Shown here one piece after another: positions 2,995-52,557 of a stretch of 64,000 bases of DNA (position 1 is the stretch's first letter; each line of letters begins with the position of its first letter). Under the pieces are notes generated by a model. That model saw only the letters and a list, made by a program, of their open reading frames with translations. It was not told where the DNA came from and ran no database searches. The stretch lies in IMG/VR virus record IMGVR_UViG_3300022226_000003, positions 13,535-77,534 of that record. One strand, written 5' to 3'. A program made the position numbers and the translations under genes. The stretch comes from a virus.

Positions 2995-3458
2995 TGGTTG
3001 ATGCAGTACTCAGTGGGTATAAAGAAGAAGCCCAGTCCGTTGTTTTCAGCGGCACACAGCAAATTAATTCCTTATTGGACAATGAATGGACAGATCCTTC
3101 AGATGTAATTGATAACAGTAGTTTAAAATATTTATTTGCAGATATTGAATTAGTTTTAGGTAGTGCTGCTTTTACAGGCACTGATTCTTCAATTGAATTG
3201 TATTTAATACCTTCAGTTGACGGCACAAACTATCCAGACTGGGTTGGTAATGTCACTACCGACGAACAGGAAAACAATAAACACTTTATTGGCTCTATGG
3301 TTACGAGTGGATCGACTGCTGCGCAAAGAATGACGTTACGTGCTGTTGCGATGCCTCCTGGTAAATTTAAGTTTGGTATTCGTAGTCGTGCTAATGTGAC
3401 ACTTGCCGCTTCAGGTAATACACTTAAATTTCGTCGTTGGAATTATTCGAGTCAGTAA
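2994..3458 (+). CDS. Hypothetical beta-sandwich virion protein
   Basis: 154 aa; translational coupling. Confidence 0.45.
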   Translation: MVDAVLSGYKEEAQSVVFSGTQQINSLLDNEWTDPSDVIDNSSLKYLFADIELVLGSAAFTGTDSSIELYLIPSVDGTNYPDWVGNVTTDEQENNKHFIGSMVTSGSTAAQRMTLRAVAMPPGKFKFGIRSRANVTLAASGNTLKFRRWNYSSQ

Positions 3459-3460
3459 AA

Positions 3461-4249
3461 GTGTCAAAAAACAAAACACTTAATTTCCCAATACTGAGCT
3501 CGCCCGAGTTACAAATTCCCGGACGAAAACCAGTTGGTCTAGTGGAGATTGATTGGCAAAACTCGATAACTAATGATCTAAAATTTTGCGTCCCTTTTAT
3601 CAATGGTTGGCATGAGTTAGTAAATAATCAACAGGCTGATACTTCGACGTTGGATGCCAATAATTTTATGAGCAGCCATCTAGGCGAAAAGGCTTTTCGA
3701 TTTGGCGGTGATCATAATGAATATATCGAATATCCTAATGATCCCGGGTTCGCCTTCAATCAAACGAAGGGCTATACAATACTAGCAAGAATTTCCTTAG
3801 ACTCTATAGCAGACTTTCGGTCGATTTGTTGTTATAAGCTGACTGATGATAGTGAGCCTTTTCTGATGTTTTACTCTAATGATGCTTCGTATTCTTCGCT
3901 TTCTTGGGGAAATCTAACTATCTCTGAAAAAGGTATAAATACCGGGGATATCAATATAACACCCGGAGATGGTCAATTTCACACTATTATTATTACAATG
4001 GATGGCGTGAATCCTGTTAATATATCTTCTTGGAATTGTTGGATTGATGGTGTTCCTCTAACTATTAATACTCAAGGTAATTTTGGGTCGGTCGGAAATA
4101 CTACTAAATTAGGCGCTTGGGATAATACTTTGCATGAGTGGCCCGGATTTGTATCTTTACAAGCTAGATGGGATAGGTCTTTAAATGACGTCGAAGTAAT
4201 AAGCTTATTTAAAGACCCATATCAAATTTTCAGGCCGAGGATTCGCTAA
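3461..4249 (+). CDS. LamG/concanavalin A-like lectin domain protein
   Basis: LamG-like pattern (YTILARI...FHTIIIT...WIDG...WDRSLNDVEV..L..PY); GTG 3461 chosen as start because it follows the upstream stop. Confidence 0.65.
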   Translation: MSKNKTLNFPILSSPELQIPGRKPVGLVEIDWQNSITNDLKFCVPFINGWHELVNNQQADTSTLDANNFMSSHLGEKAFRFGGDHNEYIEYPNDPGFAFNQTKGYTILARISLDSIADFRSICCYKLTDDSEPFLMFYSNDASYSSLSWGNLTISEKGINTGDINITPGDGQFHTIIITMDGVNPVNISSWNCWIDGVPLTINTQGNFGSVGNTTKLGAWDNTLHEWPGFVSLQARWDRSLNDVEVISLFKDPYQIFRPRIR

Positions 4250-6645
4250 TGTTGATCACGATACCCGAAGACGAAACGAAGCCGCATGTCATACCTGAAC
4301 TGCCGTTTAAAACTTATGACTCGATGTTGTTCAATGCGAGCCTCGCAACATATGCTACGCAAAATATTAATATACTCGTTAATCCTGCTGGTGCTTATAC
4401 ATTCGCTTGTTGGTTTCATATGACTACTGCCTCGAATCTCGAAGAATATATGCTTATGAATATAAGTGATGAAAATTTGAGTGATTTTATTAATATGCGA
4501 GTCAGTGATTTAACGCCGGGCCCACCAGCTTTTGAGTTCAATGTAAGAGCCCAGGGCACGGCAACTCAATCGGCCAATGCAAGTCCAGTCGTGCCATTTC
4601 AACAAGGGTGGCACCACGGTGTCGCAGTACAGTATGCAACAAATGACAGACACGCAATTTTAGATGGTCATATTGAGGGAATCAATACCGTTGACTTAAC
4701 TCCGGTGGGCCTAGTGCATGTTAATGTCGGTGCACACGTATACAACAACCGTAATAATCGCATCGATCATCATGACGGGTATATATGCTTGCCAGCAATA
4801 TGGAATGTCGGTTTAACAAAGGGCGAAATCAAGCAACTGTCAGAGGGCGTGCATCCGACAAAAATCAGGCCGGGCAACTTGGTCGCTTTATATAATAGTC
4901 GCGGAATAGATTTGATAAGCGGTAGAAATTTAACATTCTTTAACGGCGTTCAATCTAGTCAATTTTCACCGCCTTTTAAAAACGATTCCTACATATTCCC
5001 GTCAATAGATGATGAAAAATCTGTTATGCCGACTAAAACGCCCGAATTATATATTCACGAGCGTAAGCCAATTATCGGGCCGGTTGAAATAAATTTCACT
5101 AATTACCCAAAAATTAAATCGGCGTATTTATTCAATAGTCAGTCTGGTGCTAAGGATATTCTGGACCCGTCGACAGAATCAACACCTCAAGGCACTGCAA
5201 TCGTTGGGCCGTTTGGTTTAAAAACCTTTAACAATGCCAACGACTCGATGTATATCGGTACGAATAAATTAAATAGTATTTGTAACGGCGCGCAAGTCGT
5301 TATTTTTCACATCGGCTTTCGGGCAAGCTTTGACAGAGCTTCGAATGTAATTTTAGACGCTTATATTAACGGAGCTACGACGAACAGTTTTTATATATAT
5401 TTAACAGCTGCGGGCAACCTTACGGTTGGCGGCCGTAGCCAAGCTGGCGAAGTATTTGAAGACGGGGTATCTACTGGCGAAGAGTTTAAATCAGGCGAGG
5501 ATCATTTTGTAGAAATTATTTACGATTACGTCGGCGACAAAATCGTCGCCTATAAAGATGATCGCACAGTACTAAATCAGACAGTTACGTGGGATAGTGA
5601 TACTCTTGTGGCAGGCGTCTCTACCGTTCAGGATGGTTTAGGCGGCACGGCCCACAGAAGCCGAAACTCGGCAATGACGATATATTATTTTGCTGTCGAG
5701 ACATACGATGAAAGACCAATCACGCTTAATAAAAGAAGCTCGACAAGAAACCCTTATGGGCTTCTAAAACAAAGCCGCCCTGACGTTTTAATAGGTGAAA
5801 CGCAACCAGCTAATGGCTTTAATATTCCTGATGCAAAAGTTGAAATGCCTTCTTTATTTATTCCGGGTCGTAAACCAATAGGTGAAATGGAAATCGATTG
5901 GCAAAACCCGATAACATATAATTTAGAGCTATATCTACCTTTTTCAAATGCGCAGCCTCTTGCTGATTTGACTGGTAAAAATGGTGATCGTGAGTTTGTC
6001 ACTCCTTATGGTTCTCCTTCTAGGCATGTAGTAAGTGGTAGAGAATGTTGGGGTTTTAATCTAGCGGGTGGCGCAACGCAACATATATCAGTTGGTGAAG
6101 GGGCTTGCCGTCCCGGTTCTGATAATTTTAGCTATGGTTGTTGGGTTTGGATGGATGGCGGTATATCAACTGAATCTATAAATGTATTTATGTCTGCATC
6201 AGCGCCAATTGATGACGGCGATAGGTACGGATTTTGGGGAAATGATTCAAACACAACCTTTACCGCCCAATATCATGAGGGTGGCCCCGGTAATGTAGTT
6301 GAGCTTGTCAACTCAGGCGAAACTCCAGCGGATTACGAAAACAAATGGGTTTTCCTTCTCCACGTACTAGATCGCAATGCCGCAACGCCTACAATGTATT
6401 TATACCGCGATGGTATTTTGGTTGGCTCATCAACTGATCCGAAAATTAGTAACACGGCATTTGAAGATCCGGGTTTTGATTTAAAAATCGCCGCTTATGG
6501 AGACGCTATTCCAACGGTCGAGAGTGATAATCGCTTTGAATTACGCGGTTATATTTCTGATGCTTATTGGTGGCGTCGAGCTTTAACTCAATCAGAAGTT
6601 ATAGAACTTTCTAAAAATCCTTATCAATTCTTGGTACCTAAATAA
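4249..6645 (+). CDS. Multi-LamG (about 3 domains) adhesin/fibre protein
   Basis: YTFACWF...WHHGVAV...IWNVGLTKGEI and FSYGCWV...WVFLLHV...LYRDG...WRRALTQSEV; recurring RKPxGxxEI leader motif. Confidence 0.7.
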   Translation: MLITIPEDETKPHVIPELPFKTYDSMLFNASLATYATQNINILVNPAGAYTFACWFHMTTASNLEEYMLMNISDENLSDFINMRVSDLTPGPPAFEFNVRAQGTATQSANASPVVPFQQGWHHGVAVQYATNDRHAILDGHIEGINTVDLTPVGLVHVNVGAHVYNNRNNRIDHHDGYICLPAIWNVGLTKGEIKQLSEGVHPTKIRPGNLVALYNSRGIDLISGRNLTFFNGVQSSQFSPPFKNDSYIFPSIDDEKSVMPTKTPELYIHERKPIIGPVEINFTNYPKIKSAYLFNSQSGAKDILDPSTESTPQGTAIVGPFGLKTFNNANDSMYIGTNKLNSICNGAQVVIFHIGFRASFDRASNVILDAYINGATTNSFYIYLTAAGNLTVGGRSQAGEVFEDGVSTGEEFKSGEDHFVEIIYDYVGDKIVAYKDDRTVLNQTVTWDSDTLVAGVSTVQDGLGGTAHRSRNSAMTIYYFAVETYDERPITLNKRSSTRNPYGLLKQSRPDVLIGETQPANGFNIPDAKVEMPSLFIPGRKPIGEMEIDWQNPITYNLELYLPFSNAQPLADLTGKNGDREFVTPYGSPSRHVVSGRECWGFNLAGGATQHISVGEGACRPGSDNFSYGCWVWMDGGISTESINVFMSASAPIDDGDRYGFWGNDSNTTFTAQYHEGGPGNVVELVNSGETPADYENKWVFLLHVLDRNAATPTMYLYRDGILVGSSTDPKISNTAFEDPGFDLKIAAYGDAIPTVESDNRFELRGYISDAYWWRRALTQSEVIELSKNPYQFLVPK

Positions 6646-35210: not shown

Positions 35211-35228
35211 GTTGACAAGGATGTCAAT
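35211..35228 (+). promoter_or_regulatory. CsrA/RsmA-type hairpin TTGAC-AAGGAT-GTCAA
   Basis: ACAAGGATGT with GGA in the loop, upstream of ORF 35252. Confidence 0.55.
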
Positions 35229-47914: not shown

Positions 47915-49855
47915 GTGCAATACGCTGACTTACCGAAAATAATAACACCATGGAGCACTGTTGGTTATCTGACTTACAAACGGACCTACTCAAGAAAGTT
48001 TGAAGAAGAGGAAGACTTACTAGCTGCAGACGCTCCCACAGAAGAATTTGAAGATACTATATTAAGAATCATTAATGCATGTGATGAACAATTTAATTGC
48101 GGATTCACCAAACATGAAGAATATAGATTAGCTGAATATTTCTTAAAATTAAAAGGGTCAGTGGCCGGTAGATTTTTATGGCAAGCCGGGACAAAAACAG
48201 TAGATCGATTAGGCCTACCTTCTCTACAGAATTGTGCTTTTGTGGTAATTGATAGCCCGGTAAGACCCTTCACTTGGGCTATGGATATGTTAGCTGTCGG
48301 TGCAGGTGTCGGGTATAATTTACAAAAACACCATATCGACAAACTACCCACAGTTAGACCGTGGTTCAAAGCGCCTACACGTTATAATGATGGCGGTGCT
48401 GACTTCATAGTACCTGATTCAAGGGAAGGTTGGGTAAAGTTATTAGGTAAGGTGCTAAAAGCTGCCTTTCTGTCGAGCAGCCCCGAAAATGGGACTTTTA
48501 CATTTTCAACACAAATGATTAGGAGTAAGGGCGCACCCATTAAAGGATTTGGTGGCACAGCGAGTGGACCAGAAGACCTAGTTTGGGGGATCTCGCAAAT
48601 CTCCGCCTTATTGGAAAAGCGTAGAAATAAAAAGATAAGACCGATAGATGCTCTAGATATTATGAATATAATTGGTCATATTATTGTGGCCGGAAATGTT
48701 AGGCGTTCAGCCCAAATAGCAATTGGCGATCCTGACGATGTTGAATTCTTGCTAGCAAAAAGATGGGACATGGGCACGATACCTAAATGGCGAGCAATGT
48801 CAAATAACAGTGTAGCTTGTGAAGATATTAATGATTTGCATCCTTATTTTTGGCAAGGGTATGAAGGCAGGGGAGAACCTTATGGTTTAATAAATTTACC
48901 TTTGTCGAGATCTTGCGGAAGGTTAGGAGAAACTTGGTATAGCGACCCAGATGTAGAAGGCTATAATCCTTGTGCGGAGCAATCGCTTGTCCCCTATGAG
49001 ACTTGCTGTCTCTCCGAAGTATTCTTGCCTAATATAGAGTCAGAAGCGGAGTTGATGGATATCTGTGAGCTCCTTTATAGGATTAATAAGCATGCAATGA
49101 CACTGGGATCACATTTAAAAGAAACAGAAAAAGTTGTTCATGAAAATTTTAGAATGGGGATAGGGATGACGGGTATCCTTCAAGCCAGCGAAGAGCAAAT
49201 TAGTTGGCTATCTGAAACGTATAGATACTTACGACGTTTCGATGTTAAGTATTCTCATAAACGCGATTTACCGAGGTCAATTAAACTTACAACAGTTAAA
49301 CCAAGTGGAACACTATCCCTACTTCCCGGCGTGACTGCCGGAATACACCCAGGATTCTCTCAGTATATGTACCGGCGAATCACCATAGCCACTGAACACC
49401 CTTTAACGGCGATGTGCAGAGAAAAAGGTTATCCTGTTGAATTTAAGAAAGAGTTTGATGGAAGTGAGAATTATGGGTCATGCATAGTCACATTTCCTTT
49501 TAAATACTCAGAGGGTACCATTCTAGCTGAAGAAATGACGGCAATAAAACAACTTGAGTGGATTCGTAAATTACAAACGGAATGGTCTGACAATAGTGTA
49601 TCCTGTACTGTCTATTACAGTTCTGAAGAGATACCTGAAATAAAGAGATATTTAGAAAAATATTACAAGAGTCATCACAAAAGTCTTTCCTTTATGTTGC
49701 ATCAAGATCATGGCTTCGAACAAGCTCCTTTTGAGAGTATAACAAAAGAAGAGTATGATGCCCTTGTCGCAAAAGTGGAACCAATAACTGAAATTGATTC
49801 CGCAGATTTTGAGCTAAATGATGAATGTGTGGGCGGAATGTGTCCCGTGAGATAA
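47915..49855 (+). CDS. nrdJ: Class II (B12-dependent) ribonucleotide reductase
   Basis: GNVRRSA, NPCAEQ, TTVKPSGT, C-terminal CVGGMCPVR; no beta subunit present. Confidence 0.9.
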   Translation: MQYADLPKIITPWSTVGYLTYKRTYSRKFEEEEDLLAADAPTEEFEDTILRIINACDEQFNCGFTKHEEYRLAEYFLKLKGSVAGRFLWQAGTKTVDRLGLPSLQNCAFVVIDSPVRPFTWAMDMLAVGAGVGYNLQKHHIDKLPTVRPWFKAPTRYNDGGADFIVPDSREGWVKLLGKVLKAAFLSSSPENGTFTFSTQMIRSKGAPIKGFGGTASGPEDLVWGISQISALLEKRRNKKIRPIDALDIMNIIGHIIVAGNVRRSAQIAIGDPDDVEFLLAKRWDMGTIPKWRAMSNNSVACEDINDLHPYFWQGYEGRGEPYGLINLPLSRSCGRLGETWYSDPDVEGYNPCAEQSLVPYETCCLSEVFLPNIESEAELMDICELLYRINKHAMTLGSHLKETEKVVHENFRMGIGMTGILQASEEQISWLSETYRYLRRFDVKYSHKRDLPRSIKLTTVKPSGTLSLLPGVTAGIHPGFSQYMYRRITIATEHPLTAMCREKGYPVEFKKEFDGSENYGSCIVTFPFKYSEGTILAEEMTAIKQLEWIRKLQTEWSDNSVSCTVYYSSEEIPEIKRYLEKYYKSHHKSLSFMLHQDHGFEQAPFESITKEEYDALVAKVEPITEIDSADFELNDECVGGMCPVR

Positions 49856-49908
49856 GCGAAGCTATCCATAAAAAGGACGCCAAGCAATCCTGGGATTTAT
49901 GATAGAAA

Positions 49909-50181
49909 GCACAAGGACGTGCATTTTTATTAGTAGTGGCAGGCGGGGCTCGGTAGAACTGGGTTGATCCCGTAGTGGCAGGAAATGGTGTGGCAGGCAT
50001 GGAGGGTTGGCCTGGGCGAGTTATGGTGTGATCGGTCTGGAGCGGATTGGTTGGAAAGGGTGTGGCAGGCAAGGTTGGCTAGGTAAGGAGCCGCGAGACG
50101 CGAATTGGTTGGAAAGGGCATGGCAGGCGCGGCATGGTGTTGTCAGGGCAAGCTAAGACTAGGCAAGACAAGCCATGGATT
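49909..50181 (+). ncRNA. G-rich (GGY-NN)n array 1 with a 5' GCAC-AAGGAC-GTGC hairpin; candidate guide RNA array
   Basis: 5-nt period; GGCAGG at 49938, 49977, 49992, 50064, 50122; non-coding on + strand. Confidence 0.7.
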
Positions 50182-50266
50182 ATTTAAAATAAATTACTTA
50201 ATATTATATATATCTATAAAGTCGGGGTATATATAATTTTCAATTACGACTTAGGAGAATGATAAA

Positions 50267-50872
50267 ATGGCGATTTCAATTAAACCAATTAAAAGGCAGA
50301 AAGTATCTTTTCATATTGTTGGGACTACTCCCATGATTCAACATAAATGGGCTGAAAAAGCTATCATGCAAATGCGTGAAAAGCATGCAGGTAAGAAAAC
50401 TCGAGCACGTGATATTAGAAAACCTGAAGAAGAATTTCAAAATGCGTGTTATCTTACTGATAGTGATGAATATGGCTTTCCTCTAATGGGTTTTAAGACA
50501 TCACTTATTACGGCAGCGCATAAAGACATCGGTATTGAAAAGACTTTGGTGAAAAAGTCTATCTTTATTGAAAGTGATGATTCAAATCTTGTCGGTAAAA
50601 TGGAATGTTCTGAACCTATCATGCGTGAAGATTGTGTTCGAGTAGGGGCAGGTAGTACTGATCTTAGATATCGCCCTGAGTTCAGAGAGTGGGCTGCACA
50701 AATTTCTTTTGAAATTGACGGTGAAATGCTCACAGTAGAAGACCTTATTAATTTAACAAATCGAGCTGGATTTGGAGTAGGTTTGTGTGAATGGCGTCCT
50801 GAGAAAGGTGGTGAATATGGTCGTTTTAAAGTCGATACTACACAACCTATTACTACTGAAGATCTGGTGTAA
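50267..50872 (+). CDS. Stand-alone RAMP/Cas7-like protein
   Basis: N-terminal strand FHIVGTTPMI; FPLMGFKTSL helix; C-terminal G-rich loop AGFGVGLCEWRPEKGGEYGRFKV; AGGAG RBS. Confidence 0.7.
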   Translation: MAISIKPIKRQKVSFHIVGTTPMIQHKWAEKAIMQMREKHAGKKTRARDIRKPEEEFQNACYLTDSDEYGFPLMGFKTSLITAAHKDIGIEKTLVKKSIFIESDDSNLVGKMECSEPIMREDCVRVGAGSTDLRYRPEFREWAAQISFEIDGEMLTVEDLINLTNRAGFGVGLCEWRPEKGGEYGRFKVDTTQPITTEDLV

Positions 50873-51345
50873 TGAAAGCACGATGGAAACAAGGCTTTCA
50901 TGCTAAAGTCTCTGCAGATATTGCTGCTACTGAATTTGAAAGAATTCGTCAAAAGAATGGCGGTAATTTAGAAGCACCTTTAGTTCATGATGAAATTTCA
51001 AAAAAGAGAAATCCTTTACACAACACAGTAGAATGGAATGATTCTATAGCTGGTAAAGAGTATAGGTTATATCAAATTAGAAATATGTTACGTGCTATTG
51101 AAGTAATATATCTTGAAAATGATATTCCTACGCCTTCTCGACTTTTTGAAGTAATTTCAATAAAACCAGAAGCTTCTCCTAAAATGAATGTCTATAGAAC
51201 ATTAGAAGATATTCTAGCTGATCCCGAGCAAAGAAAGCAGCTCTTAATGAGAGCAAAAAGAGAACTTGCAGCATGCCGTAAAAGATATAAAGATCTAACA
51301 GAACTTTCAAATGTATTTGATGCAATTGATAGTATCTTAGATTAG
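50872..51345 (+). CDS. Helical partner protein of the RAMP-like gene
   Basis: TAATG coupling; NPLH..VEWND..A..YRLYQIR motif. Confidence 0.65.
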   Translation: MKARWKQGFHAKVSADIAATEFERIRQKNGGNLEAPLVHDEISKKRNPLHNTVEWNDSIAGKEYRLYQIRNMLRAIEVIYLENDIPTPSRLFEVISIKPEASPKMNVYRTLEDILADPEQRKQLLMRAKRELAACRKRYKDLTELSNVFDAIDSILD

Positions 51346-51355
51346 TTTATATTGT

Positions 51356-51549
51356 GATGACAAGGACGTCATCTTAAAGGCTTGCCGAGGATAGGCGTGG
51401 TATTGTTAGGCGTTGCAGGCTTGGACTGGCATAATTGGACTAGGCGTGACAGGGGTCGCGAGGCTTGACATGGTACGGCAGGCGAGGTGAGACGTTAAGG
51501 GGCATGGTGGCTTTCGTTGTGACTTGACATGGTACGGCAGGCGAGGTAA
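51356..51549 (+). ncRNA. (GGY-NN)n array 2 with a 5' GATGAC-AAGGAC-GTCATC hairpin
   Basis: 5-nt register from 51379; junctions at 51414, 51477, 51536; exact 25-nt repeat at 51464 and 51523. Confidence 0.72.
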
Positions 51550-51573
51550 CATTATTAAACTTTAAGATTGTTG

Positions 51574-51701
51574 GCACAAGGATGTGCATTTATTCAGGGA
51601 AATACTTAGGCGCAAAACTCACAGTGCTGAGGATGCGGTGGGCGGCAACCTGCGAAGAACCTTTGCCGAGGCATTTGGACCTAGGTGTTTCCCTAAATAA
51701 A
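51574..51701 (+). ncRNA. GGA hairpin followed by a structured RNA with a ~21-bp closing stem
   Basis: TTATTcAGGGAAATACTTAGG / CCTAGGTGTTTCCCTaAATAA enclosing two internal hairpins. Confidence 0.6.
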
Positions 51702-51724
51702 ATTTACCGCGAGGAGTATTAACA

Positions 51725-51955
51725 ATGTCCAAGAAAGAGGATATAGACCCAGTATATGGCCCTGATTACGGGCATTTAATGACATTGGAGGAATTCAAAG
51801 ATGCCATTCGATGCGGTGCGTTTATTGATGATGATGGAGTGGGAGTATTGGCCACCGCTGACTACTCCACAGACCATCAAATTTCTCCTTCAGCAATATC
51901 TACCGACAAAGAGCTCCCGGAATGGGTGACACATATTGTATGGTATAATAAATAG
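51725..51955 (+). CDS. Small phage protein (FIDDDG...VWYNK)
   Basis: GAGGAG RBS. Confidence 0.65.
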   Translation: MSKKEDIDPVYGPDYGHLMTLEEFKDAIRCGAFIDDDGVGVLATADYSTDHQISPSAISTDKELPEWVTHIVWYNK

Positions 51956-51963
51956 GAAATATT

Positions 51964-52497
51964 ATGAAAATTACTAGAAGTTCAAAGATGACATACGCTG
52001 AGATGGCAGACCTTGTCACGAGTTATATTAACAAAGGAGTTAACACCAAGCTCAGATTGCGAGATATCTTGAAAGTTCGTGCTAAAATAAGTTCGGCTGG
52101 TGCGGTTGCATTCATCGATGGTTACACCGGGAATGACCCTAAGAAACATTGCTGGAATTATAAAATTGGGGCTCATAATCGAAAAGAATTCTACGTATTG
52201 CAAGAAAAGAATGTATCATCCATTGAAGAAACTCTGGTTGAACGTAAATCTACGTACGGCAGTTTTGAAGACAATTCGGATATTTCCCAAACCTTGAAAG
52301 CAAGACTCAGAGCTTTTCCAAAATGGCAGTTACTTAATGATGTTCAAAAAGAAGCTCTGGAAATGGTTTGTTTGAAGCTAAGCCGAATATTAAGTCCAGG
52401 TGAAGGTCATGCACACATCGATAACTGGCATGATATTGCAGGATATGCTAAATTGGTTGAGAATCAGTTAAAAAATGGGAGATGCAATGATAGCTAG
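51964..52497 (+). CDS. Protein with a C-terminal DUF6378-like domain
   Basis: TLVER..YGSF...KLSRIL...DNWHDIAGYAKL. Confidence 0.7.
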   Translation: MKITRSSKMTYAEMADLVTSYINKGVNTKLRLRDILKVRAKISSAGAVAFIDGYTGNDPKKHCWNYKIGAHNRKEFYVLQEKNVSSIEETLVERKSTYGSFEDNSDISQTLKARLRAFPKWQLLNDVQKEALEMVCLKLSRILSPGEGHAHIDNWHDIAGYAKLVENQLKNGRCNDS

Positions 52498-52557
52498 ATA
52501 CACATTAGCTTTACAGGCTAAAATCTATTATAAAACATTGGAATTACAGGAGCTAAG

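What the first reader, a model, noticed from the sequence alone, without database searches (positions are those of the whole stretch)
49909..51701. Candidate non-CRISPR RNA-guided system: a lone RAMP/Cas7-like gene bracketed by (GGY-NN)n arrays
Seen: between nrdJ and a run of small genes lies hairpin-array 1, a 201-aa gene, a 157-aa gene, hairpin-array 2, and hairpin-structured RNA. The arrays are G-rich, strand-skewed and non-coding in an AT-rich genome, with a 5-nt period (semi-constant GGC/GGT/GGA/GAC triplet plus 2 variable nt) reset by a 4-nt GGCA step. The 201-aa protein has an N-terminal beta strand, a P..GFK helix and a C-terminal Gly-rich loop (GFGVGLCEWRPEKGGEYGRF). Established: this layout is the RAMP (Cas5/6/7) pattern, and Cas7 filaments bind guide RNA with a fixed per-subunit period. 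Inference: each subunit grips a triplet while the NN dinucleotides together spell a discontinuous target, probably to silence or block rival phages, mobile elements or host genes. No cas1, cas3 or canonical CRISPR repeat is present. From memory this resembles the recently reported phage VIPR systems (GGY/NN guides); I cannot verify that here, so novelty is uncertain.
Basis: partly seen in the sequence, partly recalled or inferred. Interest (0 to 1): 0.95.

Follow-up and report, generated by a model that had tools for sequence, protein, structure and literature searches.

The report
VIPR RNA-guided locus in a phage

Summary
The two G-rich stretches (49938-50177 and 51379-51549) are the two strongest period-5 GG signals and the two most G-rich windows in the whole 77.5-kb phage genome. 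The 201-aa protein matches the solved SUSP1 Vipr protein (PDB 36pp, E 1.3e-7; hhalign 98%). It folds as a Cas7/Csm3-type RAMP and keeps the residues that grip the GGY triplet in the SUSP1 cryo-EM structure.

In 80 IMG/VR relatives, GGNNN repeat chains total 4097 units on the vipr strand against 35 on the other strand. Of their 208 4-nt phase steps, 199 read GGCA. This is the 'staggered vrRNA array' of the VIPR preprint (bioRxiv 10.64898/2026.04.26.720920). The 157-aa gene follows vipr in 72 of the 82 loci then held. It looks winged-helix-like and is unrelated in sequence to the gene in the vap1 position of a SUSP1-type felixounavirus locus.

Two caveats remain. The window's arrays are degenerate (51-57% canonical GGY, with internal 4- and 6-nt slips). 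No target was found under the published 1-nt-skip rule.

Verdict: a genuine VIPR locus of non-type-II architecture. It is a new member of a known kind, of modest interest. Other first-reader notes of this scan cover this same stretch.

The parts
49909..49922 (+). Hairpin 1, GCAC-AAGGAC-GTGC, just after the nrdJ stop and just before array 1. The extended stem spans 49900-49932 and is followed by a T-run.
   Evidence: Folds at -10.8 kcal/mol, z -5.2. Exact ACAAGGACGT motif. Terminator-like only on the minus-strand scan.
49938..50177 (+). vrRNA array 1: 49 pentamer-type units with GGCA junctions at 49938, 49977, 49992, 50064 and 50122. Candidate vrRNAs are 49942-49980 (39 nt), 49981-49995 (15 nt, probably vestigial), 49996-50067 (72 nt), 50068-50125 (58 nt) and 50126-~50177.
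   Evidence: Period-5 GG autocorrelation. Top-scoring window of the genome. Parses. GGCA is the junction in 199 of 208 4-nt steps in relatives.
50203..50237 (+). Conserved stem-loop between array 1 and vipr: a 13-bp AT-rich stem around a loop that includes AAGUCGG, followed by UUUUC. Possibly a terminator for array 1 or a regulator of vipr expression.
   Evidence: z -3.2 in the window and -2.8 in relative L003, with different stem sequences and a conserved AGTCGGGG stretch.
50267..50872 (+). vipr: 201-aa minimal RAMP (single RRM, thumb hairpin 118-139, G-loop 168-186).
   Evidence: PDB 36pp_D 'SUSP1 Vipr protein', E 1.3e-7. hhalign 98%, E 2e-13, against a SUSP1-type Vipr. AF2 pLDDT 87. Foldseek hits to Cas7/Csm3, E 2e-5, probability 1.0. 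phrog_4652. At least 1009 homologues.
50872..51345 (+). vap-type accessory gene: 157 aa, a winged-helix-like N-terminal domain (1-119) plus C-terminal helices. Its start overlaps the vipr stop codon.
   Evidence: Homologue downstream of vipr in 72 of the 82 loci then held, immediately downstream in most, and in ODay, Donkeykong and Cy-LDV1. AF2 pLDDT 95.5. VIA Z 5-6 to PadR/MecI/MarR/forkhead/Fur winged helices. phrog_15946. No sequence similarity to the gene in the vap1 position of a SUSP1-type locus.
51356..51373 (+). Hairpin 2, GATGAC-AAGGAC-GTCATC, between the vap stop and array 2.
   Evidence: A matching hairpin sits at the same place in relative L003.
51379..51549 (+). vrRNA array 2: 35 units, with junctions at 51414 (TGCA), 51477 and 51536 (GGCA). 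Candidate vrRNAs are 51379-51417 (39 nt), 51418-51480 (63 nt) and 51481-51539 (59 nt = 11x5+4, perfectly phased).
51574..51587 (+). Hairpin 3, GCAC-AAGGAT-GTGC, followed by ATTTATT. It closes array 2.
   Evidence: Terminator-like site on the + strand. Motif.
51589..51701 (+). Structured RNA-like element of about 113 nt closed by a long stem. Function unknown, and membership of the VIPR locus is unproven.
   Evidence: MFE -51.2 kcal/mol, z -3.45. No Rfam match. No homologue in the related loci.

Best explanation
The locus is a phage-encoded VIPR (Viral Interference Programmable Repeat) system with staggered arrays.

Shown here:
- vipr encodes a minimal Cas7-like RAMP homologous to the solved SUSP1 Vipr.
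- It is followed by a conserved winged-helix-like accessory gene.
- It is flanked, on the same strand, by two arrays of pentamer units: a G-G/A-Y triplet plus two variable bases. 4-nt GGCA steps break the arrays into roughly seven or eight vrRNAs of about 39-72 nt.

Inferred from the published SUSP1 work:
- The arrays are transcribed and cut at the GGCA junctions.
- One Vipr protomer binds each pentamer, flipping out the GGY bases and presenting the NN pairs.
- The filament reads double-stranded DNA with one skipped base per NN (xNN xNN ...). This forms an R-loop/triplex that blocks transcription of a competing phage, satellite or prophage. The Vap protein assists.

The target of this particular phage's guides is unknown.
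For: Protein:
- Sequence match to PDB 36pp 'SUSP1 Vipr protein', E 1.3e-7.
- Profile match of 98%, E 2e-13, over 168 columns to a felixounavirus Vipr.
- A confident AF2 model whose best PDB matches are all Cas7-family subunits.
- The SUSP1 residues reported to contact G1, G2 and Y3 are H17, R138, D177, W178 and R179 (paper 10.64898/2026.04.26.720927). They align with H26, R136, E175, W176 and R177 here. H26, R136 and R177 are invariant and E175 nearly invariant in the 30-sequence family alignment; W176 is not on either list.

Arrays:
- Period-5 signal.
- In 80 IMG/VR relatives, 4097 GGNNN chain units lie on the vipr strand and 35 on the other. 92% of the triplets are GGY, and 70 of 80 loci have 8 or more units.
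- 199 of 208 phase steps are GGCA, with 8-12 units between junctions. This matches the 'staggered arrays with 1-nt overlap' of the VIPR preprint.

Operon and context:
- A vap homologue lies downstream of vipr in 72 of the 82 loci then held, and in cultured Gordonia, Mycobacterium and cyanobacterial phages.
- The context is a complete phage genome with no Cas1 or CRISPR array.
- No self-target was found, as the preprint reports for its systems.
Against: - Only 51-57% of the window's triplets are canonical GGY, against 100% in relative L009. Several vrRNAs contain internal 4- or 6-nt slips, and one is only 15 nt long. The preprint reports that perturbing GGY motifs abolished silencing, so some or all guides here may work poorly.
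- No target was found. Nothing exceeded shuffled-guide controls in the phage's own genome or in the related loci.
- There were no exact 9- to 11-unit matches in IMG/VR or in the metagenome contigs.
- There was no match with up to 3 mismatches in five relatives' full contigs.
- Transcription, processing and RNP formation are untested.
- The Vap fold assignment is weak (Z 5-6).
Confidence: 0.88

Rival explanations
1. A decaying VIPR locus. vipr and vap are intact, but the arrays have eroded under AT-biased mutation and slippage. Few or no functional guides are made, and the locus is on the way to loss or to a guide-independent role.
For: - GGY content is 51-57% here and about 70% in the closest relative L003, against 100% in L009.
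- There are internal 4- and 6-nt steps, and one inter-junction segment is only 15 nt long.
- No target was found.
- The genome is AT-rich, 38.6% GC.
Against: - Position 1 (G, about 90%) and position 3 (pyrimidine, about 83%) are still strongly constrained, and the strand bias is intact.
- The arrays remain by far the most G-rich sequence in an AT-rich genome, which argues for selection.
- A perfectly phased 59-nt unit exists at 51481-51539.
- The Vipr RNA-contact residues are kept.
- The preprint itself notes frequent internal degeneracy of vrRNAs and variant consensus forms such as NNNGG, YNNNG and NNNNG.
Confidence: 0.1
2. The G-rich arrays are not guides. They would be a protein-sponge or regulatory RNA (for example a CsrA/RsmA decoy, given the AAGGAY hairpins and the many GGA motifs) or G-quadruplex elements, and the neighbouring RAMP gene would be unrelated to them.
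For: - Three hairpins with an ACAAGGAYGT core flank the arrays. From my own knowledge, this resembles the SELEX CsrA consensus RUACARGGAUGU.
- Several units read GGA.
Against: - Relatives' arrays are almost pure GGC/GGT with few GGA, and they lack the hairpin motif: it occurs only four times in 401 kb of relatives, and only the L003 copy lies beside an array.
- The arrays nevertheless co-occur with vipr, on its strand, in 70 of 80 loci.
- The 5-nt phase with GGCA junctions has no explanation under a sponge or G-quadruplex model.
Confidence: 0.02

Closest known systems
VIPR type II system of Escherichia phage SUSP1 (bioRxiv 10.64898/2026.04.26.720920; structures PDB 36pp/36PK; bioRxiv 10.64898/2026.04.26.720927)
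   Same: - A homologous Vipr protein of about 200 aa, with conserved G-loop, thumb and GGY-contact residues.
- A two-gene vipr-accessory operon.
- GGYNN pentamer arrays on both sides of the genes, on the coding strand.
- Phage-borne, with no cas genes.
   Different: - Only about 25% identity in the profile alignment.
- The accessory protein is unrelated in sequence to the gene in the vap1 position of the SUSP1-type locus L082.
- vrRNAs abut through GGCA 4-nt junctions, instead of each carrying a roughly 40-nt pseudoknotted 3' tail.
- The triplets are degenerate (G-G/A-Y).
VIPR 'staggered vrRNA arrays' (fig. S18 of the same preprint). Examples found here: IMG/VR relatives L004, L009 and L011, Gordonia phage ODay, Mycobacterium phage Donkeykong and Cyanophage Cy-LDV1.
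   Same: - The same Vipr subfamily (35-70% identity).
- The same Vap family (phrog_15946).
- The same (GGYNN)n-GGCA junction grammar, with 8-12 units per vrRNA.
   Different: - The window's arrays are far less regular.
- The lineage adds AAGGAY-loop hairpins at the array borders. These are seen only here and in relative L003.
- Which of the preprint's seven types this is could not be read, because the figures are not held.
Class 1 CRISPR-Cas backbone subunits (Cas7/Csm3, type VII Cas7, Cas7-11)
   Same: An RRM core, thumb hairpin and glycine-rich loop. These are the best structural matches in the PDB. Binding to guide RNA is filamentous, with one subunit per fixed period.
   Different: - 9-15% identity and TM about 0.45-0.53.
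- A 5-nt rather than a 6-nt period.
- No repeat-spacer array, and no Cas1/2, Cas5, Cas6 or large subunit.
- The guide is read discontinuously.

Membership tests
VIPR system | Vipr protein: a minimal single-RRM RAMP with thumb and G-loop, homologous to characterised Vipr | tested here: met
   - PDB 36pp_D, E 1.3e-7.
- hhalign 98%, E 2e-13.
- AF2 plus Foldseek: Cas7 family, probability 1.0.
- H26, R136, E175, W176 and R177 correspond to SUSP1 H17, R138, D177, W178 and R179.
VIPR system | Tandem YNNGG/GGYNN pentamer repeats (at least 4 units, internal degeneracy allowed) in the intergenic regions flanking vipr, on its strand | tested here: met
   84 units in two arrays. Position 1 is G in about 90%, position 3 is Y in about 83%, and NN is variable. 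Canonical GGY makes up only 51-57%. Relatives: 4097 units on the vipr strand against 35 on the other.
VIPR system | Minimal locus with an adjacent vap accessory gene and no cas genes or CRISPR array | tested here: met
   A conserved 157-aa gene lies downstream of vipr in 72 of the 82 loci then held. No Cas1. No CRISPR-like tandem repeats. Cas genes other than cas1 were not searched individually.
VIPR system | Arrays are transcribed into vrRNAs of about 50-100 nt that co-purify with Vipr | not testable with these tools
   Needs sRNA-seq and pull-down. Only sizes predicted from the GGCA junctions are available: 39, 15, 72, 58, about 52, 39, 63 and 59 nt.
VIPR system | NN dinucleotides specify dsDNA targets by the 1-nt skip rule (natural targets at 80% or more NN match in competing mobile elements) | tested here: inconclusive
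   No hit above shuffled-guide controls in the own genome or the related loci. No exact 9- to 11-unit hits in IMG/VR or in the metagenome contigs. None with up to 3 mismatches in five relatives' contigs. Collection-wide searching allowed exact matches only, which is much less sensitive than the preprint's nhmmer 80% criterion.
VIPR type II (SUSP1/P. fulva clade) | vap1 accessory gene, and vrRNAs each ending in a conserved 3' tail of about 40 nt | tested here: not met
   The Vap here has no similarity to the gene in the vap1 position of the SUSP1-type locus L082 (BLASTP E 1.5; hhalign probability 0.05). vrRNAs abut at GGCA junctions without a separate tail.
VIPR staggered-array architecture | Consecutive vrRNAs overlap by 1 nt, so the pentamer phase steps by 4 nt at each boundary | tested here: met
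   GGCA|GG steps occur at seven positions in the window. In relatives, 199 of 208 4-nt steps are GGCA and only two 6-nt steps occur. Figure legend S18.
CRISPR-Cas (class 1) | A repeat-spacer array with adaptation genes (cas1/cas2) and a multi-subunit effector | tested here: not met
   No Cas1. No repeat-spacer array. A single RAMP gene only.

The most novel reading that the evidence does not exclude
This phage lineage (the window plus relative L003) may run a modified VIPR in two respects. First, the protein may tolerate a relaxed G-R/G-Y triplet, so that 'degenerate' units are still read. Second, each array is capped by a CsrA-consensus-like AAGGAY hairpin. A further conserved hairpin lies between array 1 and vipr. 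These elements could tie guide production or stability to a host RNA-binding regulator, or to one of the phage's own T7-type RNA polymerases. Neither layer is mentioned in the parts of the VIPR papers read here.
Probability: 0.1. Interest if true: 0.6.

Novelty: new member of a known kind. Interest (0 to 1): 0.3.

Why it matters
- The locus shows that the sequence-only first pass can recognise a very recently described class of RNA-guided system.
- It adds an AT-rich, RNA-polymerase-encoding environmental phage to the VIPR host range.
- It documents a large subfamily with staggered arrays. Its vap is unlike the SUSP1-type one, and it has more than 1000 protein relatives. Tractable cultured members exist: Gordonia phage ODay, Mycobacterium phage Donkeykong and Cyanophage Cy-LDV1.
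- The degenerate arrays are a natural test of how strictly Vipr needs GGY. That bears on guide design if VIPR is used as a programmable repressor.
- The locus does not open a new kind of biology.

Tried and rejected
Annotation searches that returned nothing:
- Rfam, at E up to 1, found nothing in 49000-52500, including hammerhead ribozymes. A loose CUGAGGA...GAAG resemblance in the 51589-51701 element was therefore dropped.
- Pfam, NCBIfam and PADLOC have no model for either protein.
- Megablast of 20 kb against GenBank phages found no close relative.
- The genome-contig scan returned only six MAG contigs, with inconsistent phyla, so no host could be assigned.
- Tandem Repeats Finder does not see the arrays.

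Accessory protein:
- Sequence homology to the gene in the vap1 position of a SUSP1-type locus was rejected.
- The PDB sequence search gave nothing meaningful.
- Foldseek gave only weak winged-helix hits, E 0.26 or higher.

[quoted passage not shown] Results were at the level of shuffled-guide controls.
- 124 clean guides from relatives were scanned against the window's genome and all loci. One 85% match appeared, judged to be chance.
- Five exact-pattern scans of IMG/VR and one of the metagenome contigs returned zero hits.
- A scan allowing up to 3 mismatches over five relatives' whole contigs returned zero hits.

Other:
- The AAGGAY hairpin as a general VIPR feature was rejected. It is specific to this lineage.
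- A T7-like promoter reading of AATTACGACTTAGGAG upstream of vipr is unsupported. There is a single copy in the window, which is the chance expectation.
Full report
**What is in the sequence**

The window belongs to a 77,534-bp IMG/VR virus record that CheckV rates as complete. The region has the following layout:
- a class II ribonucleotide reductase-like gene ending at 49855
- a hairpin at 49909-49922
- a G-rich non-coding stretch at 49938-50177
- a 201-aa ORF at 50267-50872
- a 157-aa ORF at 50872-51345, whose start overlaps the preceding stop codon
- a second hairpin at 51356-51373
- a second G-rich stretch at 51379-51549
- a third hairpin at 51574-51587
- a structured element of about 113 nt at 51589-51701
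- small genes from 51725 onward

**Is the periodicity more than chance?**

- The two stretches are 43% and 36% G but only 15-16% C, in a window of 38.6% GC.
- GG-to-GG autocorrelation peaks at lags 5, 9/10, 14/15 and 19/20 (z about 2-3 against shuffles), with depletion between the peaks. The split peaks reflect occasional 4-nt steps.
- On a sliding scan of the whole genome, both strands, the two stretches score 18 and 11 on a period-5 GG statistic. The next best window scores 6.
- They are also the two most G-rich 150-nt windows (0.47 and 0.41, against 0.35 or less elsewhere).
- A dynamic-programming parse into 5-nt units, with penalised 4- and 6-nt steps, gives 49 units in array 1 and 35 in array 2.
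- Position 1 is G in about 90% of units, position 2 is G in about two thirds (mostly A otherwise), and position 3 is a pyrimidine in about 83%. Positions 4-5 are unconstrained.

Only 57% and 51% of the triplets are canonical GGY.

**The 201-aa protein**

- Pfam, NCBIfam and PADLOC have no model for it. PHROGs places it in phrog_4652, of unknown function.
- A search of PDB sequences returns one hit, chain 36pp_D, 'SUSP1 Vipr protein', at E 1.3e-7 over the C-terminal thumb and G-loop region.
- A 30-sequence family profile aligns with the Vipr of a SUSP1-type felixounavirus over 168 columns, at 98% probability and E 2e-13.
- AlphaFold2 gives a confident model (pLDDT 87, pTM 0.82).
- Its best PDB matches by Foldseek are all Cas7-family backbone subunits: type VII Cas7, Csm3, Cas7-11 and type III-D. 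They come at probability 1.0, E down to 2e-5 and TM 0.45-0.53.
- The cryo-EM paper names the SUSP1 residues that hold the GGY bases: H17 and D177 for G1, R138 and W178 for G2, and R179 for Y3 (10.64898/2026.04.26.720927). Read off the alignments, these correspond to H26, E175, R136, W176 and R177 here.
- H26, R136 and R177 are invariant and E175 is nearly invariant across the family alignment. W176 appears on neither list.

The protein is a Vipr.

**The published system**

VIPR systems were reported in April 2026 (10.64898/2026.04.26.720920). The main points are:
- A VIPR system has a minimal RAMP (Vipr), an accessory gene (vap), and vrRNAs of 9-16 YNNGG repeats.
- The system is mostly phage-borne.
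- It binds dsDNA through the NN dinucleotides, with one skipped base per unit, and silences competing satellites and prophages.
- Seven types are described.
- Array architectures include 'staggered arrays' in which successive vrRNAs overlap by 1 nt (fig. S18 legend).

**Relatives**

The protein has at least 1009 homologues in the metagenomic protein collection. I fetched 80 IMG/VR loci with 35-69% identical Vipr genes.

Across these 80 loci:
- Chains of four or more GGNNN units total 4097 units on the vipr strand and 35 on the opposite strand.
- 70 of the 80 loci have at least 8 units.
- The triplet is GGC in 65% and GGT in 27% of units.

Loci such as L009, L004 and L011 show textbook arrays. 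Runs of GGCNN end in GGCA, after which the phase steps by 4 nt. Of 208 such steps flanked by clean units, 199 read GGCA. Only two 6-nt steps occur, and the commonest spacing is 8-12 units.

In the window the GGCA|GG junctions lie at 49938, 49977, 49992, 50064, 50122, 51477 and 51536. They predict vrRNAs of 39, 15, 72, 58 and about 52 nt in array 1. In array 2 the predicted sizes are 39, 63 and 59 nt. The last of these (51481-51539) is perfectly phased: 11 pentamers plus GGCA.

**The 157-aa gene**

- A homologue lies downstream of vipr in 72 of the 82 loci then held, immediately downstream in most.
- It is also found in the six MAG contigs and in Gordonia phage ODay (gp19/gp20), Mycobacterium phage Donkeykong (gp49/gp50) and Cyanophage Cy-LDV1 (g34/g33). 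All of the cultured phages carry arrays, and ODay and Cy-LDV1 show GGCA junctions in the printed sequence.
- The family is large: 7447 clusters at E up to 1e-3. It corresponds to phrog_15946.
- The model is very confident (pLDDT 95.5).
- Residues 1-119 align with winged-helix DNA-binding domains (PadR, MecI, MexR, forkhead, Fur, Z-alpha) at Z 5-6. That is suggestive but not decisive.
- It shows no similarity to the 146-aa gene that follows vipr in the SUSP1-type felixounavirus locus. This system is therefore not type II.
- The preprint says that types II, VI and VII have predicted DNA-binding Vaps. I could not assign the type, because the figures and data tables are not held.

**Closest relative and the degeneracy**

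The nearest relative is L003, a 69-kb complete UViG whose Vipr is 69% identical. It is syntenic: nrdJ, array, vipr, vap, hairpin, array, then tRNA-Tyr. Its arrays are also degenerate, at 67-70% GGY. It shares short guide blocks with the window, for example GGCTT GGACT GGC.

The erosion, or relaxation, of the triplet is therefore a trait of this AT-rich lineage. The preprint notes 'frequently observed internal degeneracy' and variant consensus forms. It also reports that perturbing GGY abolished silencing in SUSP1. Whether every guide here is active is an open question, and I keep a 'decaying arrays' rival at about 10%.

**Targets**

Following the published rule (GGY replaced by one wildcard), I ran these scans:
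- The three best-phased guides were scanned against the phage's own genome, with the arrays masked, and against the related loci then held. Best scores equalled those of shuffled guides. The absence of self-targets agrees with the preprint.
- 124 clean guides from relatives did not hit this phage above chance.
- Collection-wide scans accept exact patterns only. Sub-guides of 9 to 11 units from the window and from relatives gave no match in IMG/VR or in the metagenome contigs.
- A scan allowing up to 3 mismatches over five relatives' whole contigs gave nothing.

The target remains unknown. The test is much weaker than the preprint's 80%-match nhmmer search.

**Other elements**

- Three hairpins with the core ACAAGGAYGT border the arrays, and a fourth lies at 35211-35228 in a 5' leader.
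- One matching hairpin occurs at the same place in L003. Otherwise the motif is essentially absent from 401 kb of relatives. It is a lineage feature and not part of VIPR in general.
- Another first-reader note pointed out that the core resembles the CsrA SELEX consensus, which I recall as RUACARGGAUGU. I could not test binding.
- A hairpin at 50203-50237, between array 1 and vipr, is conserved in L003. The stem sequences differ while the AGTCGGGG stretch is kept, and a U-run follows.
- The 51589-51701 element folds significantly (z -3.45). It has no Rfam match and no homologue in the related loci.

**Verdict**

It is a VIPR system of the staggered-array architecture whose accessory gene is unrelated to the SUSP1-type one. 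The kind is already published, so this is a new member of a known kind and not a new system. The points of residual interest are the degenerate triplets, the lineage-specific hairpins and the unknown target.

Noticed in passing
window 35211-35228, 49909-49922, 51356-51373, 51574-51587; L003 3582-3599: There are four + strand hairpins with the loop AAGGAY and the core ACAAGGAYGT. The stems differ but still pair. Three border the VIPR arrays and one lies about 24 nt upstream of a gene start. One copy sits at the same place in the closest relative. Otherwise the motif is essentially absent from 401 kb of other VIPR loci. The core resembles the CsrA binding consensus (from memory).
   Followed up: partly
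window 50203-50237; L003 2428-2464: A stem-loop lies between array 1 and vipr. The stems differ in sequence while the AGTCGGGG stretch and a downstream UUUUC are conserved, as is AATTACGACTYAGGAG just upstream of the vipr start. It is possibly a terminator or a regulator of vipr.
   Followed up: partly
window 51589-51701: A structured element of about 113 nt closed by a long stem (z -3.45). It has no Rfam match and no homologue in the related loci. In relative L003 the corresponding position holds a tRNA-Tyr.
   Followed up: partly
L090 (Mycobacterium phage Donkeykong, NC_051648) 1499-1844: A clean staggered GGYNN array (chains of 5-12 units) lies inside the annotated protein-coding genes gp47 and gp48 ('hypothetical protein'). 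These CDS calls are probably spurious ORFs over a vrRNA array.
   Followed up: no
L009 (IMGVR_UViG_3300037606_000121) 3107-5589: A very large VIPR locus with about 290 repeat units in three arrays and two tandem vap homologues (3841-4314 and 4629-5102).
   Followed up: no
window 51964-52497: A 177-aa protein with a DUF6378 domain (E 5e-8), two genes downstream of the VIPR locus.
   Followed up: no
related loci L004-L079: Nearly every clean guide of 12 or more units ends with the NN pair AG. This is the GGCA|G junction shared with the next vrRNA, so the last 'unit' may be a processing signal and not part of the guide.
   Followed up: partly
window 50047-50070 and 50104-50127; 51462-51488 and 51521-51547: Direct repeats span vrRNA junctions: ATTGGTTGGAAAGGGYRTGGCAGGC twice in array 1, and a 25-nt repeat, TTGACATGGTACGGCAGGCGAGGT, twice in array 2. 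They could be recent duplications that extend the arrays, or a conserved junction or processing context.
   Followed up: no
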